Below, one piece after another: positions 18,399 through 22,645 of a DNA stretch of 64,000 bases (its first letter is position 1; the number at the start of each line of letters is the position of its first letter). The stretch comes from a virus. A program made the translations under genes and the position numbers. Below the pieces are notes generated by a model that saw nothing but the letters and a program-made list of their open reading frames with translations, had not been told where the DNA came from and ran no database searches. Location of the stretch: positions 1 through 64,000 of the IMG/VR virus record IMGVR_UViG_3300046804_004006; one strand, written 5' to 3'.

Positions 18399-18584
18399 AT
18401 GATGAAACTTACTAAAGCACAAAAAGAGATTCTACTGACTCTTGAGAATGGTGATGAAGTGAATAACTGGTCGCAACGTATGCGAGCACTTCAACCATTG
18501 ATTGATGCTGGTATTGTTTACATTAAGGTGACGAATGATAAGAATGGTATTACCGAGGATGTAAGAATCGCACTGGTCGATTAG
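18399..18584 (+). CDS. small hypothetical protein (possible winged-helix)
   Basis: MKLTKAQKEILLTL...ALQPLIDAGIV. Confidence 0.55.
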   Translation: MMKLTKAQKEILLTLENGDEVNNWSQRMRALQPLIDAGIVYIKVTNDKNGITEDVRIALVD

Positions 18585-19007
18585 TTCTTTTTTTCTCAAA
18601 ACAAAATGACATTCACTGAAGTTCTAGAATCTCTTCCGCAGTTTATTGATGAAATGCAACCTGATCTTGAGATGATTTATGATTTCATCACAGAACAACT
18701 CTGCACTGAAGATTTAACTGATGCAGAATGGAGTCAAATTCTTAATCTTTACACTTCTTACTGATGAACGATTCTACACTTGATCTTTTTACAGATCATG
18801 AAGATGCAGAAGATGCAACAATCGAAGAACTTGCTGCTGCATTAGAAATCACTGTTGATTATTTTCTCGCGGAGTTTGTTTGATGATTAAGTACACCTTC
18901 GACATTATCACTCATCAACCAGTTTATGTTGTTTGTAATGTAAATCACCAACCACAAGTCATTACAACTAACATCTGCACTGCAATTCACAAACTTCAAC
19001 AAGTAAA

Positions 19008-19214
19008 ATGATTTTTCAAGTTACTGAAATTGAATTCGATTTCACTGATGATCTTGATGAAGAAGCATTAGATCAAGAAACACAAGATGAGATTTATGAT
19101 GAGGTTATTGGTCAAATCTGGGAAGCAGATGATGAAGATGATTTAATTGAAGAGATTACTTGTGCTACAGGTTGGTGCATTAAATCCATTGATTATCGAC
19201 ACGTTCTAAAATGA
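19008..19214 (+). CDS. very acidic small protein
   Basis: FQVTEIEFDF...WEADDEDDLIEEITCATGWCIKSIDY. Confidence 0.7.
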   Translation: MIFQVTEIEFDFTDDLDEEALDQETQDEIYDEVIGQIWEADDEDDLIEEITCATGWCIKSIDYRHVLK

Positions 19215-19685
19215 CACAATATACATACACTGTTATTGGTGGAGTTAATGAGTATGAATGTGATGTTAAGTCATTACAACTGTTTGATCGAAAATCACAA
19301 GCAGAACAGTATGCAGAGGATATAAAGGAAAAGTGGGATTATGAATATGTTTCTATCACTGTAAAGGAGATTCAATGAAGAAGAAAAAGAAAGAAAAACA
19401 TCAATTACTATCTAAAGCACAAGATGGTAATGAACTTCTTATTATTCTCAATGCACTGAAATGAAACAAGAAGCACAACTGATTGATGCTCTCTATGAGG
19501 AACTTTATGCAAACAACTATTCACTCATCGAAAAGGTGATTGAAGAGTATGTGTTGAACTTAAATCCTATTGAAATGAATACTCTTGAAGATTTGATTGT
19601 CAATAACTTTGGTATTGATTGATTAAAGATATAATGATATTGTTATATTAAAAATGTATTAAAAAAGATATATGAGTGTTTTATC

Positions 19686-19729
19686 TTTTCCACAATAACT
19701 GTGGAAAAAGTATAATAAACTGTGGAAAA
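19686..19729. promoter_or_regulatory. three DnaA boxes (TTTTCCACA)
   Basis: TTTTCCACA at 19686-19694; TGTGGAAAA at 19700-19708 and 19721-19729; next to an AT-rich tract. Confidence 0.65.
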
Positions 19730-19772
19730 CTTATGAATCTTAAGTCTTTTAAGTGTCTATAAATGTGCTCAG

Positions 19773-19882
19773 GTCTTGTGATCTTATAAATGCTCATAAA
19801 TGCTCATAAATGCTCATAAATGCTTATAAATGCTCATAAATGCTTATAAATGCTTATAAATGCCTCAGAGTCTTGTGATCTT
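19773..19882. repeat. 7 x 10-bp tandem repeat TGCTYATAAA bracketed by 13-bp direct repeats
   Basis: Units at 19791-19860; GTCTTGTGATCTT at 19773-19785 and 19870-19882. Confidence 0.9.
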
Positions 19883-19889
19883 GGCCCGC

Positions 19890-19918
19890 AGTCTATCAGC
19901 ACTTGGAGATTTTGTCAA
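19890..19918 (-). promoter_or_regulatory. leftward sigma70 promoter pointing into the tandem repeat
   Basis: On the - strand TTGACA-N17-TAGACT with extended TG. Confidence 0.65.
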
Positions 19919-20145
19919 GCACCCCCAGGACACATAAAAAACCCCCACACCTCACATTATAACAATATCACACTTCCGTTATATCATATAAGTCCACATA
20001 GCATACTCTCCCTACATATAAAACACTCTCAGACACTTCTATATGCCCCTACAAGGCACTTATAGACACTCTTAGGTCTTACACCCTATAATTCAGTTAT
20101 CAAGGTTCTATCAGAACTCTTTTATTCTATCATAAAATCTCCTAG

Positions 20146-20174
20146 TTGACAAGTGCTCATAATGTTGCTAGAGT
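20146..20174 (+). promoter_or_regulatory. sigma70-like promoter
   Basis: TTGACA-N17-TAGAGT with extended TG. Confidence 0.6.
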
Positions 20175-20270
20175 AGGTTTGTTGCTGTTAAAGAGAGATA
20201 ATATCAACAAGAACTTAAAGACCGTCCGAAGGACAACACGACCGAAGGGAGTGTTTCTATAAGACACTGA

Positions 20271-20299
20271 TTGACAATTACTATAAGACCTGATAGAAT
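20271..20299 (+). promoter_or_regulatory. strong sigma70-like promoter directly upstream of the repeat array
   Basis: TTGACA-N17-TAGAAT with extended TG. Confidence 0.75.
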
Positions 20300-20317
20300 A
20301 TAACAATCAGAACACAC

Positions 20318-20633
20318 AAAGTTCATTCGTTATTAGAGAATGAATGTAATAGAATCTCTTATTGAGAATCAAAGATAATATCACTGAGAAATTCATTCGT
20401 GATTAGATAATGTTCGTATAGAATTTCATATAAAGCACCTATTCTCAATAAGAACTCAAAGTTCATTCGTGATTAGATAATGTTCGTATAGAAGATAAAC
20501 AATACATATTCTCTAAGTATTGATATAAAAGTTCATTCGTGATTAGATAATGTTCGTATAAGACTTTGCAGAGTATCGAAAAGTCATCAAATCCTAATGA
20601 AAAGTATTCGTGTATTCTGCACATGCGTATAAA
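20318..20633 (+). repeat. CRISPR-like regularly interspaced repeat array (about 33-36 bp repeat, 70-bp period), no cas genes
   Basis: AAAGTTCATTCGTGATTAGATAATGTTCGTATA(GAA) at 20388, 20458, 20528; degenerate copies at 20318 and about 20601. Confidence 0.85.
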
Positions 20634-20712
20634 TATTCACCAAGTCTTGTGTATTAAGTTCACAGGAACTTAGTGAATTCTTATCAGTTTCGTGAGTCGT
20701 ATAAGAGTGGGG

Positions 20713-20741
20713 TTGACGGGGGATATAAGTTCTGCTACACT
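20713..20741 (+). promoter_or_regulatory. sigma70-like promoter
   Basis: TTGACG-N17-TACACT with extended TG. Confidence 0.65.
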
Positions 20742-20773
20742 TACAACAGTCGTTCAGTTCTTCTTCACTTCTT

Positions 20774-20941
20774 ATGTCTAGTTCGTATCTCCTAGCACAA
20801 AAGAATAAGTATCGTATCACGTTAGAACTTGACGTTCTCGGTGATTTCGATCCTCATCAGATTGATTGGAAGAAACTCTTTGACCTTGAGCATAATGAAT
20901 CGGTCAAGAGTTATGTAGAAGATCTCTCAGTGCCTTGGTAA
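20774..20941 (+). CDS. small hypothetical protein (55 aa)
   Basis: Read manually: MSSSYLLAQKNKYRITLELDVLGDFDPHQIDWKKLFDL... Confidence 0.7.
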   Translation: MSSSYLLAQKNKYRITLELDVLGDFDPHQIDWKKLFDLEHNESVKSYVEDLSVPW

Positions 20942-21628
20942 TTCTTATACATCAGTGAGTTTATTATCTCTTCGTGTAGATGTTCGTGTGATATAATTAT
21001 ACTTTGCGTTGTTCTTTATACATTCTTCGTGTCAGTTGTTGATATAAACTCAACAATGTGCTGGCAGTTACTATAAAGAACTACGTGGAGATATAATTAT
21101 ATCGTGCTGATTGTTCGTTGTGAGTATAAAGAACTGTGCTGATGTATTAGAATACACTAAGAATTGGTGGTAGTTAATATAAAGAATGACGAATAATAAT
21201 ACTTATTCGTTGTCAGTTCTTTATTCGTTATAGCAGCGATTTTATGTTGTTTGTTATTGTTTATATCGGGCGTTGCGGTTATAAAAACGCTCCACTACCC
21301 TAATCTATAACAACTCCGTACACCGACCTCGATTTATCTCTCATTCAAAAAATTCCGGAGAAAAAAATGTTTACAAAATGGATTCATAAAAACGGCAAAT
21401 CAAGACCAGATAAACGCTGTAAAAATTGTAAGACCCAAGCAAAGGCAAATGGTGCGCGTAAGAGAAAGAAGAAGTAAACCTTATTGGAACTTCTGGAAGG
21501 TTGTCTTAGTGGGATGGATAATTCGCTATCCTGGAAAAATGTTTAAAATTATCGGAGTCCCTCTTGGAATTCTTATAGCAATGATATATAAATCGGTGAC
21601 GAAATAAAAAATTTCCCGGAAAAATTTT

Positions 21629-21829
21629 ATGAAAAACATCGAAAAATTATATCACATATATGCAAAGGATCGGTGCATATATCACAATCTTCCAGAAAAC
21701 AAATTCTATGAAACCTGGGATATGTTGCACAAAATGGTTGAGCTATTAGGTTCGAATATTTCAACAAAAGATTTACAATATGAGGAAGTATTTGTCAATA
21801 AACTTATATCACTAAACTCATCATATTGA
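21629..21829 (+). CDS. hypothetical cyanophage protein
   Basis: 66-aa ORF, KLYHIYAKDRCIYHNL. Confidence 0.65.
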   Translation: MKNIEKLYHIYAKDRCIYHNLPENKFYETWDMLHKMVELLGSNISTKDLQYEEVFVNKLISLNSSY

Positions 21830-21854
21830 CAAATACTAAATAGGACGATAAAAT
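21826..21854 (+). promoter_or_regulatory. overlapping sigma70 and late promoter
   Basis: TTGACA-N17-TAAAAT with CTAAATA inside the spacer. Confidence 0.65.
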
Positions 21855-21877
21855 TGATCTGAAGGTTGATTTAACTT

Positions 21878-22645
21878 ATGGCAAAAGGATTTACTGTAAA
21901 AGCAGCAGCACCCAAACCCAAAGAAGGGGAATGGGATTATGATGCGATTAAAGAACGAATGAAAGGTAAGAGTATTGTCTTCTGTTTACCTGGAAGAGGA
22001 TGTTCTTTTATTTTTCTAAAGGCATTTGTACAACTTTGTTTTGATCTTGTACAAAATGGAATGAGTATTCAAATTAGTCAAGATTACTCATCAATGGTTA
22101 ACTTTGCACGTTGTAAGTGTTTAGGTGCAAATGTTCTTCGTGGACCAAAGCAAGTTCCTTGGGATGGAAAACTTCAATATGATTATCAACTTTGGATTGA
22201 CTCGGATATTGTCTTTGATTCTAACAAATTCTGGCAACTCTGTGATCTTTCTTTGAGTGAAGATGGTACTGAGCGTGAGATTACTGCTGGATGGTATGCA
22301 ACAGAAGATGGTCACACAACCTCTGTCGCACATTGGTTAGAAGAAGATGATTTCCGCAAAAATGGTGGAGTTATGAATCACGAAACTGTGGAATCAATCA
22401 GCAAGCGTCGTAAGCCATTCACTGTAGATTACACAGGTTTTGGGTGGGTTATGATTAAGAATGGTGTTTTTGAAAATCTTGAATATCCCTGGTTTGCTCC
22501 AAAGATGCAAGTCTTTGAGTCTGGTAATGTTCAAGATATGTGTGGAGAGGATGTATCATTCTGTCTTGATGCAAAAGAAGCAGGATTTGAGATCTGGTGT
22601 GATCCTCGAATTCGTGTAGGACATGAGAAAACTCGTATTATTTGA
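21878..22645 (+). CDS. GT-A fold glycosyltransferase-like conserved cyanophage protein
   Basis: LWIDSDIVF (DxD), GFGWVMI, GEDVSFC, DPRIRVGHEK. Confidence 0.75.
   Translation: MAKGFTVKAAAPKPKEGEWDYDAIKERMKGKSIVFCLPGRGCSFIFLKAFVQLCFDLVQNGMSIQISQDYSSMVNFARCKCLGANVLRGPKQVPWDGKLQYDYQLWIDSDIVFDSNKFWQLCDLSLSEDGTEREITAGWYATEDGHTTSVAHWLEEDDFRKNGGVMNHETVESISKRRKPFTVDYTGFGWVMIKNGVFENLEYPWFAPKMQVFESGNVQDMCGEDVSFCLDAKEAGFEIWCDPRIRVGHEKTRII

What the first reader, a model, noticed from the sequence alone, without database searches (positions are those of the whole stretch)
20271..20703. Promoter-driven, cas-less CRISPR-like array with exact 70-bp period
Seen: a near-consensus sigma70 promoter (TTGACA-N17-TAGAAT, 20271-20299) would start transcription about 12 nt before the first repeat. 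The repeat AAAGTTCATTCGTGATTAGATAATGTTCGTATAGAA occurs at 20388, 20458 and 20528. A degenerate copy sits at 20318 (exact 70-bp step), and further decayed copies keep ATTCGTG/CGTATA at about 20601 and CGTATA at 20698. The intervening 34-37 nt are different in each unit, giving CRISPR-sized repeat/spacer geometry with no ORF and no cas gene in the window. Unlike a normal CRISPR, spacer 1 (TCTTATTGAGAAT) and spacer 2 (ATTCTCAATAAGA) carry a 13-nt reverse complement, spacers 2 and 3 share TATTCTC, and the repeat lacks a strong palindrome. Inference: this is a phage non-coding RNA array. It could be a mini-CRISPR borrowing host Cas, an RNA anti-CRISPR or antitoxin-mimic decoy, or a protein sponge. 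The alternative is replication iterons.
Basis: partly seen in the sequence, partly recalled or inferred. Interest (0 to 1): 0.85.

Follow-up and report, generated by a model that had tools for sequence, protein, structure and literature searches.

The report
Phased repeat array in cyanophage control region
A T4-like cyanophage carries a small array of near-identical 30-base sites spaced about 70 bases apart; it looks like CRISPR but is not, and is most likely a docking platform for an unknown protein in the phage's main non-coding control region.

Summary
The repeats are real. There are three good 36-nt copies at 20388, 20458 and 20528, exactly 70 bp apart. Decayed copies sit at 20318, about 20600 and about 20690, and a strong sigma70-type promoter lies at 20271-20299. 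The window is a T4-like cyanomyovirus.

The array belongs to a conserved family. I found 56 distinct arrays in uncultured viral and metagenome contigs, each with 2-5 units and a period of 68-73 bp. An invariant block of about 30 nt alternates with fixed-length spacers (38-42 nt) of unrelated sequence.

It is not CRISPR-like:
- The repeat occurs in tandem in none of 185,579 prokaryote species genomes.
- Spacers are inherited vertically with point changes.
- No protospacers were found, no Cas1 is present, and the repeat has no hairpin.

The core occurs only at this locus. It is part of a 1-kb domain with 16 co-oriented TTCGT pentamers flanking a small early ORF, downstream of three perfect cyanobacterial DnaA boxes.

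My best reading (0.4) is a phased, iteron-like array of protein-binding sites on DNA, tied to origin or early-gene control. The main rival (0.25) is a transcribed, unstructured RNA scaffold or sponge, because 40 of 42 upstream contexts carry a same-strand promoter. The binding factor and the transcripts remain unknown.

Other first-reader notes on this genome had flagged the same region.

The parts
19686..19729 (.). Three perfect cyanobacterial DnaA boxes TTTTCCACA (19686 +, 19700 -, 19721 -), beside an 85% A+T tract at 19621-19685
   Evidence: These are the only 3 copies in the 72.6-kb contig. The consensus was confirmed in passages of PMC4674748. A+T content.
19786..19863 (.). 10-bp tandem repeat ATAAATGCTC x 7.8
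   Evidence: TRF, 95% matches.
19890..19918 (-). Leftward sigma70-type promoter TTGACA-N17-TAGACT, conserved in relatives
   Evidence: The homologous sequence is seen in L001-L003.
20146..20174 (+). Promoter P1, TTGACA-N17-TAGAGT
   Evidence: 10 of 12, TG present. Conserved in L014 and L020.
20271..20299 (+). Promoter P2, TTGACA-N17-TAGAAT, 19 nt before the first (decayed) unit
   Evidence: 11 of 12, TG present. Conserved in L014 and L020.
20318..20353 (+). Unit 0, decayed repeat
   Evidence: 71% identity to the reference copy. Matrix score 6.9.
20354..20387 (+). Spacer 0 (34 nt)
20388..20423 (+). Unit 1, full repeat
   Evidence: Matrix score 41.5.
20424..20457 (+). Spacer 1 (34 nt)
   Evidence: No exact match for its central 24 nt in viral contigs.
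20458..20493 (+). Unit 2, full repeat
   Evidence: Matrix score 40.8.
20494..20527 (+). Spacer 2 (34 nt)
   Evidence: No exact match for its central 25 nt in viral contigs.
20528..20563 (+). Unit 3, full repeat
   Evidence: Matrix score 40.8.
20598..20636 (+). Decayed terminal unit (ATTCGTG-N-GCGTATAAATA). It contains a late-promoter-like ATAAATA at 20629.
   Evidence: (score -4.7).
20686..20706 (+). Remnant with two half-sites, TTCGTG-AG-TCGTATAAGA
20713..20741 (+). Own promoter of the small ORF, TTGACG-N17-TACACT
   Evidence: The equivalent TTGACG promoter is seen in relatives.
20774..20941 (+). Small conserved ORF (55 aa, phrog_12516, function unknown), flanked on both sides by TTCGT sites
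20942..21300 (+). Second, looser set of co-oriented TTCGT sites, with TATAAAGAAC repeated every 53 bp (21059-21191)
   Evidence: (family D4).

Best explanation
The array acts in cis on double-stranded DNA. It consists of 3-5 equally spaced, co-oriented recognition sites of about 30 bp. Each site holds two TTCGT half-sites 17 bp apart around GATTAGATAAG. An unidentified sequence-specific protein, phage-encoded or host, binds these sites.

Bound together, the sites would form a phased nucleoprotein complex. This complex sits just upstream of the early promoter of a small conserved gene and downstream of host DnaA boxes, an A+T-rich tract and a 10-bp repeat.

By analogy with iteron replicons and with T4 oriE (an early promoter plus evenly spaced direct repeats), the complex would control replication initiation, the local early promoters, or both.

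Shown here:
- the anatomy;
- the conservation of the core;
- the fixed spacing;
- the single-locus occurrence;
- the co-orientation of the sites;
- the absence of any CRISPR link.

Inferred: protein binding, action at the DNA level, and any role in replication.
For: 1. The invariant block is about 30 nt long (about 1.4-2 bits per position), while spacers carry about 0-0.2 bits. Spacers fall into 24 families below 60% identity, with a median pairwise identity of 34%.
2. Spacer length is held at 38-42 nt. Of 148 regular intervals, the periods are 72 x85, 69 x37, 70 x13, 71 x9, 68 x2 and 73 x2, in 56 arrays. This holds although spacer sequence is saturated with change, and the spacers show almost no gaps in the alignment of 16 arrays. 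It argues that spacing itself is selected.
3. The core exists only at this locus. No other site was found in the 72.6-kb contig or in viral records of 156 kb and 120 kb. It is therefore not a dispersed promoter class.
4. No complement of the core exists in the phage contig or in host genomes. A 25-30 nt invariant unstructured segment is hard to explain as an RNA base-pairing element.
5. TTCGT occurs 16 times on the + strand and once on the - strand in 20300-21300 (shuffles: mean 1.2, maximum 7 in 2000). In 49 rows from array-bearing loci the means are 15.8 (+) and 1.2 (-). Three array-less relatives have 0-2.
6. The sites flank the small ORF on both sides.
7. Three perfect DnaA boxes lie about 600 bp upstream and are the only three in the contig. 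DnaA-box clusters recur at this intergenic position in relatives (7 of 29 loci).
8. T4 oriE combines an early promoter with evenly spaced direct repeats (passages of PMC3016281).
Against: - No binding protein is identified. No neighbouring ORF co-occurs only with arrays.
- The adjacent 55-aa protein is acidic, has no family assignment and no fold match.
- A 70-bp spacing is far from the roughly 22-bp spacing of classical iterons (recalled).
- The period differs between lineages (69 versus 72), so no single helical phase is kept. Spacers show no 10-11 bp dinucleotide periodicity.
- DnaA boxes are present in only 6 of 19 array loci that have at least 1 kb upstream. They also occur in array-less relatives, so the two features are separable.
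- 40 of 42 upstream contexts carry a same-strand promoter. In many lineages a candidate structured RNA abuts the array. Both facts fit a transcribed function equally well.
- Cumulative GC skew shows no turn at this position.
Confidence: 0.4

Rival explanations
1. RNA-level platform. The array is transcribed and acts as an unstructured, A-rich RNA. Transcription would start from early promoters in this phage, and in most relatives from a late-type TATAAATA box, often behind a structured 5' domain that I call X. The 3-5 copies of the invariant motif would bind or sequester a protein (a sponge or scaffold), or would serve as a regulatory leader for the small ORF.
For: - Of 42 distinct 450-nt upstream contexts, 32 have an exact same-strand TATAAATA, 9 have a sigma70-type promoter matching at least 10 of 12, and 40 have one or the other.
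- ATAAATA behaves as the late promoter box of this phage. It lies 25-45 nt before 9 of 23 ORF starts checked, and all nine are structural genes.
- Element X lies 0-128 nt before the array in many lineages. It has 17 proposed pairs, 97.6% of cells paired, and 3 pairs with compensatory change against 0 in the slid controls.
- Unit and repeat RNAs fold no better than shuffles: z is +0.4 to +1.2 in five of six cases and -0.44 in one. Whole + strand arrays give z of -1.08 and -0.19.
- Spacers are A-rich and G-poor on the + strand (A 0.425, G 0.126).
- All TTCGT motifs are co-oriented with transcription.
- Stops in three frames lie inside every core.
Against: - A 25-30 nt invariant linear protein-binding RNA motif would be unusual.
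- Tightly fixed spacing is not expected for a flexible RNA.
- No complementary target exists.
- There is no Rfam match.
- The window's own phage lacks X, and its late-type box at 20629 lies after the good units.
Confidence: 0.25
2. Tandem promoter-like units. Each core would be a special promoter or RNA-polymerase docking site, spaced at roughly one polymerase footprint. The units would fire into the small ORF or titrate polymerase.
For: - A TAnnnT hexamer (TAAGAT, TAAGTT or TAATGT) sits at a fixed core position in 89 of 100 distinct units.
- If that hexamer is a -10, the conserved block spans -31 to -1.
- A weaker TATAAT-like hexamer lies about 8 nt after the core in a minority of units: 11 of 100 match at least 5 of 6 at offset 32, and the spacer base profile agrees.
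- Terminal decayed units carry a perfect TATAAT.
Against: - There is no -35-like element.
- The motif is found nowhere else in 72.6-kb, 120-kb and 156-kb phage records, so it is not a promoter class.
- All 15 other TTCGTG sites on the + strand of the contig lie in what look like coding contexts, without a promoter-like -10.
- The register was chosen after the fact.
Confidence: 0.12
3. CRISPR-related element: a cas-less mini-array that uses host Cas proteins, or an RNA anti-CRISPR decoy that mimics host repeats.
For: The geometry is superficially CRISPR-like (36-nt repeat, 34-nt spacer) with a leader-like promoter. There is a precedent: cyanophage N-1 carries a transcribed cas-less array of five 37-bp repeats (abstract and passages of PMC4916379).
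Against: - The N-1 repeats match the host DR5 family. Here the core has 0 hits in 185,579 species genomes, and only 7 single chance-level hits for an 18-mer, none tandem.
- Spacers are shared by descent.
- Arrays never exceed 5 units.
- No protospacers were found.
- The repeat has no hairpin.
- No Cas1 is present.
Confidence: 0.02
4. A neutral minisatellite: a tandem duplication with no function.
For: The edge units are decayed and the unit number varies from 2 to 5.
Against: The core is nearly invariant across lineages whose spacers are unalignable, and spacer length is held constant.
Confidence: 0.03

Closest known systems
[quoted passage not shown]
   Same: Both have co-oriented direct repeats confined to one locus, next to DnaA boxes, an A+T-rich repeat tract and promoters. 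In both, repeat sets lie on both sides of a small early gene. T4 oriE depends on an early promoter and lies in the baseplate-gene neighbourhood (passages of PMC3016281; the T4 gene order and the plasmid layouts are recalled).
   Different: - The period here is 68-73 bp, against roughly 22 bp or contiguous iterons.
- The conserved block here is about 30 bp.
- No Rep-like initiator gene is present, and no homology to RepEA or RepEB was tested.
- No replication data exist.
Cas-less CRISPR array of Nostoc cyanophage N-1
   Same: Both are cyanophage elements of about 400 bp with 4-5 repeats of about 36 nt, similar-sized spacers and an A+T-rich leader.
   Different: N-1 repeats belong to a host CRISPR repeat family and are predicted to form its hairpin. 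This repeat matches no host genome, has no hairpin, and its spacers are inherited vertically.
Multi-motif protein-sponge RNAs (CsrB/RsmZ, CrcZ)
   Same: Both carry several copies of one short motif spread along a non-coding transcript. CrcZ motifs are A-rich and unstructured (recalled).
   Different: The motif here is 25-30 nt long, and its spacing is fixed to within 2 nt. Neither transcription nor a binding partner has been shown.
Type III toxin-antitoxin RNA repeats (ToxI) and phage pseudo-ToxI
   Same: Both are tandem non-coding repeats behind a promoter. Phages are known to carry mimics (recalled).
   Different: In ToxI the whole unit of about 36 nt is repeated with no variable spacer, and a toxin gene follows. 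Here only about 30 of 70 nt are conserved, and the next gene is an unassigned 55-aa protein.

Membership tests
CRISPR array / RNA anti-CRISPR repeat mimic | The repeat belongs to a repeat family of a CRISPR-Cas system in the host, or in any prokaryote | tested here: not met
   The 23-nt core pattern has 0 hits in 185,579 species genomes. The 18-mer gives 7 single, non-tandem hits in unrelated taxa.
CRISPR array / RNA anti-CRISPR repeat mimic | Spacers are acquired independently: they turn over between relatives and match mobile elements | tested here: not met
   The same spacers sit at the same positions in related phages, differing only by point changes. The phage collection has no match. Two spacers have no exact match in viral contigs.
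CRISPR array / RNA anti-CRISPR repeat mimic | Near-identical direct repeats of 21-48 nt separated by spacers of similar length | tested here: met
   This is a match of geometry only.
CRISPR array / RNA anti-CRISPR repeat mimic | cas genes nearby | tested here: inconclusive
   No Cas1 (PF01867) is in the contig, but the contig is 34% complete and only one family was tested.
Iteron-type replication origin | Several co-oriented direct repeats confined to one locus | tested here: met
Iteron-type replication origin | Adjacent DnaA boxes and an A+T-rich unwinding region | tested here: inconclusive
   Met in this window. Only 6 of 19 array loci with at least 1 kb upstream have boxes.
Iteron-type replication origin | A cognate initiator (Rep) gene next to the repeats | tested here: not met
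   Flanking ORFs have no Pfam family, and their PHROG families have unknown function. The small ORF model has no fold match.
Iteron-type replication origin | Repeats of about 17-22 bp at a spacing of about two helical turns | tested here: not met
   The block is about 30 bp and the period is 68-73 bp. The typical iteron values are recalled.
Iteron-type replication origin | Replication starts there | not testable with these tools
   This needs origin mapping in infected cells.
Type III TA antitoxin RNA (ToxI-like) | The whole unit is repeated without a variable part, followed by a terminator and an endoribonuclease toxin gene | tested here: not met
   Only the core is conserved. No terminator was found on the + strand. 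The downstream ORF is unassigned.
Known RNA families (Rfam 15) | A match to a curated covariance model | tested here: not met
   No hit at E <= 1 in window 18500-22500. L044 1400-3500 gave only a chance-level snoRNA row.

The most novel reading that the evidence does not exclude
The array is the unstructured tail of a new kind of phage non-coding RNA. A promoter starts the transcript: early-type in this phage, late-type in most relatives. In most lineages a structured 5' domain (element X) follows, and then 3-5 copies of an invariant 25-30 nt motif held at a fixed pitch of about 70 nt. The motifs would load or sequester several copies of a host or phage protein during infection.
Probability: 0.2. 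Interest if true: 0.8.

Novelty: new variant of a known kind. Interest (0 to 1): 0.52.

Why it matters
It is still not known how T4-like cyanophages, which are major killers of marine and freshwater picocyanobacteria, start replication and switch gene-expression phases. They lack the T4 middle-mode factors (recalled).

This locus brings several elements together in one 1.7-kb non-coding region, next to the baseplate module:
- host DnaA boxes;
- divergent early promoters;
- a late-type promoter;
- in relatives, a candidate structured RNA;
- a strongly conserved, precisely spaced repeat array.

That gives a concrete and testable candidate for an origin or control centre. It also gives a 30-bp bait for identifying the factor that reads the array.

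The finding also warns against calling CRISPR-like arrays from geometry alone in phage genomes.

Tried and rejected
- CRISPR or anti-CRISPR mimic: rejected.
- Coding on the minus strand: only one minus frame of the core is open. Periods of 70 and 71 break the frame between units, so this was rejected on frame logic. Homologues of the minus-strand ORFs were not searched.
- Conserved RNA hairpin in the core or unit: none found. The 5' flank varies while its would-be partner is invariant (read). GAATG, the complement of the core's CATTC, occurs upstream of 19 of 86 units against 2.6 in shuffles. Those units come from a few related lineages, so I give this little weight.
- Dispersed promoter class: rejected.
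- Late promoter inside the units: the phage's late box is ATAAATA, and the units have TATAGAA or TATAAGA instead.
- Helical periodicity of AA/TT in spacers: none found.
- A link between array period and the downstream 52-53 bp repeat: none found.
- Neighbouring gene present only with arrays: none found.
- Small ORF as a ribbon-helix-helix DNA binder, an idea prompted by its YRITLEL motif: the AlphaFold model (pLDDT 79.6) has almost no helices, and Foldseek against PDB gave no match at E <= 0.001. The idea was dropped.
- RNA evidence: the look-up of sequencing runs listed no RNA holder.
- Literature: searches found no description of such arrays, iterons or DnaA boxes in cyanophages. The library lacks most subscription journals, and I could not see supplements, so this is not proof that it is unpublished. 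The T4 oriE paper PMC94188 is not held. TATAAATA as the T4 late consensus is recalled; a text search of PMC2988020 did not find the string.
- Deposited phage genomes: none of the 50,697 records carries the array.

Full report
**What the window is.** The large ORFs match T4-type baseplate wedge, head-tail connector, tail sheath stabilizer, terminase and tail sheath families. The ORF at 21878-22645 is 86-87% identical in protein to Synechococcus myoviruses Bellamy, SynMITS9220M01 and S-SM2. The window is therefore part of a T4-like cyanomyovirus. The record is a 72.6-kb linear viral contig, estimated 34% complete.

- The repeat finder gives a 35-nt family at 20319, 20389, 20459 and 20529, spaced 70/70/70.
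- TRF gives period 70.
- Decayed copies follow at 20598-20636 and 20686-20706.
- The promoter TTGACA-N17-TAGAAT at 20271-20299 matches 11 of 12 positions and has an extended-10 TG.
- The region scan as a whole found no more promoter-like sites than shuffles did (17 against 15.1).
- No + strand ORF of 40 aa or more covers 20306-20672.

**The array is a family, not a one-off.**
- BLAST of 19700-21900 against 80 related viral loci showed homologous arrays in nine of them. L014 is 81% identical to the window over 20088-20560, which includes both upstream promoters.
- The core pattern TTCGTGATTAGATAANNTTCGTA occurs in 41 IMG/VR contigs and in 42 metagenome stretches.
- Of the 174 sequences held (173 loci plus the window), 97 loci carry an array and 56 arrays are distinct. 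Two of the 56 are doubtful reverse-strand matches inside loci that also have a forward array.
- Unit numbers are 2 (x6), 3 (x9), 4 (x17) and 5 (x24).
- Regular periods are 72 (x85), 69 (x37), 70 (x13), 71 (x9), 68 (x2) and 73 (x2). A 55-bp step to a decayed terminal unit occurs 23 times.
- Across 100 distinct unit sequences, a block of about 30 nt, AAAtTCATTCGTGATTAGATAAGaTTCGTAT, is close to invariant, while the rest carries almost no information.
- In the first set of 34 arrays, the 57 distinct spacers are 38-42 nt long, 71% A+T and A-rich (A 0.425, G 0.126). They have a median pairwise identity of 34% and fall into 24 families below 60% identity.
- In an alignment of 16 arrays of one period type, the cores are invariant. 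The spacers vary by substitution with almost no gaps.
- Among 38 relatives that have the small ORF and at least 600 nt upstream of it, 7 have two or more cores, 1 has one core and 30 have none. The array-bearers are those whose small-ORF protein is closest to the window's, at 71-96% identity against 54-72%.
- Bellamy, S-SM2 and SynMITS9220M01 lack the array.
- No deposited phage genome carries it.

**It is not CRISPR-related.**
- The core pattern has 0 hits in one genome each of 185,579 prokaryote species.
- An 18-mer of the core gives 7 single hits in unrelated taxa. None is tandem and none is a picocyanobacterium. By my own estimate this is no more than chance would give in 596 Gb.
- The same spacers recur at the same positions in related phages, with point changes only.
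- Arrays never exceed five units.
- No protospacer was found.
- The repeat RNA has an MFE of -0.7 kcal/mol and a z-score of +1.2.
- Cas1 is absent from the incomplete contig.
- The known cas-less cyanophage array, in Nostoc phage N-1, is defined by repeats of the host DR5 family. That defining feature fails here.
- Rfam gives nothing.

**What else the sequence shows.**
- The core occurs only in the array. A matrix built from other phages' cores scores the three window units 41.5, 40.8 and 40.8. The next best scores are 6.9 and -4.7, both decayed units, and everything else is lower.
- In viral records of 156 kb and 120 kb, the core with up to 3 mismatches occurs only in the array.
- The elementary motif is TTCGT. 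There are 16 copies on the + strand and 1 on the - strand in 20300-21300, against a shuffle mean of 1.2 and a maximum of 7 in 2000. In 49 rows from array loci the means are 15.8 and 1.2, and array-less relatives have 0-2.
- The TTCGT copies lie both before and after the small ORF. Downstream they again show spacings of about 72-75 bp and 18-22 bp.
- Upstream of the array lie three perfect TTTTCCACA boxes at 19686-19729, the only three in the contig. This is the cyanobacterial DnaA-box consensus (passages of PMC4674748).
- Also upstream are an 85% A+T tract, a 10-bp tandem repeat and a conserved leftward promoter.
- DnaA-box clusters recur at this position in relatives: 7 of 29 loci have two or more boxes within 100 bp, and several show 20-22 bp tandem repeats of the box. 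Among array loci with at least 1 kb upstream, only 6 of 19 have boxes.

**Transcription context.**
- Within 260 nt upstream, a strong sigma70-type promoter is present only in the window, L014, L020 and L105.
- With the larger set and a 450-nt window, 42 distinct upstream contexts were examined. Of these, 32 carry an exact same-strand TATAAATA, 9 carry a sigma70-type site matching at least 10 of 12, and 40 carry one or the other.
- In this contig ATAAATA lies 25-45 nt before 9 of 23 ORF starts checked, and all nine are structural genes. It occurs 25 times on the + strand and 3 on the - strand. I therefore read it as the late promoter box; the T4 consensus is recalled.
- In many lineages this box precedes a conserved non-coding element of 145-200 nt, which I call X, ending 0-128 nt before the first core. 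My proposed structure for X has 17 pairs, 97.6% of cells paired, and three pairs with compensatory change, against none when the partners are slid. The structure was derived from these same sequences, which inflates such measures.
- The window's phage lacks X, and its own ATAAATA at 20629 lies after the good units.
- Arrays are thus very probably transcribed, but by different promoter classes in different lineages.

**Weighing the mechanisms.**
- Points favouring recognition on duplex DNA:
  - A 30-nt invariant, unstructured block has no complement anywhere I could search.
  - Its spacing is held within a few bases while the spacers have randomised.
  - It occurs at a single locus.
  - Co-oriented half-sites lie on both sides of a small early gene.
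  - DnaA boxes and an A+T-rich repeat lie nearby.
  - The closest analogues are iteron origins and T4 oriE, which combines an early promoter with evenly spaced direct repeats.
- Points against:
  - The 70-bp pitch is not that of known iterons.
  - No initiator gene or binding protein is at hand.
  - The helical phase is not conserved between lineages.
  - Spacers show no 10-11 bp periodicity.
  - The promoter context fits an RNA role equally well.
- My estimates are:
  - 0.40 for a DNA-level phased binding platform tied to origin or early-gene control;
  - 0.25 for an RNA-level scaffold, sponge or leader;
  - 0.12 for tandem promoter-like units (TAnnnT at a fixed core position in 89 of 100 units; but no -35 and no other genomic copies);
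  - 0.02 for CRISPR-related;
  - 0.03 for neutral;
  - the remainder is unassigned.

**Novelty and score.** Within the limits of the paper library I found no description of this array family, or of DnaA boxes or iterons in cyanomyoviruses. It is best filed as a new variant of phased direct-repeat cis-elements. It is not a member of any defined family. Interest is moderate: the CRISPR-like reading that drove the first score is refuted, but the locus is a concrete candidate control or origin centre for an ecologically important phage group.

Noticed in passing
window 19686-19729 (and L003, L028, L042, L043, L045, L067, L074, L080): Clusters of perfect cyanobacterial DnaA boxes (TTTTCCACA) lie in the same intergenic region of many T4-like cyanophages. 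They are often 20-22 bp tandem repeats, and they occur with or without the 70-bp array. In the window these three boxes are the only copies in 72.6 kb.
   Followed up: partly
L044:2096-2293, L102:6299-6494 and 16 other loci (alignment A1); absent from the window: Element X is a conserved non-coding element of about 145-200 nt behind an invariant TATAAATA box, lying directly upstream of the array in many lineages. It has a cUACGg-type hairpin and a three-tier 3' hairpin with compensatory changes. It has no Rfam match and is a candidate late-transcribed structured RNA.
   Followed up: partly
window 19786-19918: A conserved leftward sigma70-type promoter (19918-19890) points into a 10-bp tandem repeat (ATAAATGCTC x 7.8) that is bracketed by direct repeats of GTCTTGTGATCTT. 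It runs against the coding direction of all neighbouring genes.
   Followed up: partly
window 20146-20270: Between promoters P1 and P2 lies a conserved 95-nt stretch with a GTCC-GAAG-GAC hairpin. It is about 81% identical in L014 and L020. It may be a short early RNA, and on the minus strand the same hairpin scores as a terminator (20237-20221).
   Followed up: no
window 20942-21300: TATAAAGAAC is repeated every 53 bp (21059-21191), with palindromic GATATAATTATATC and further co-oriented TTCGT sites. The 52-53 bp spacing recurs in relatives whatever their array period.
   Followed up: partly
loci L004-L083 and L084-L173: Many metagenome and viral contigs begin or end inside or next to the array (for example L018, L085, L106, L111, L122). 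This suggests the repeats break short-read assemblies.
   Followed up: no
window 20774-20941: The 55-aa acidic protein (phrog_12516) is conserved across cyanomyoviruses, with invariant R14, T16, L17, D24, W32 and Y47. It is confidently modelled (pLDDT 79.6) but has no helix-rich fold and no PDB match.
   Followed up: partly
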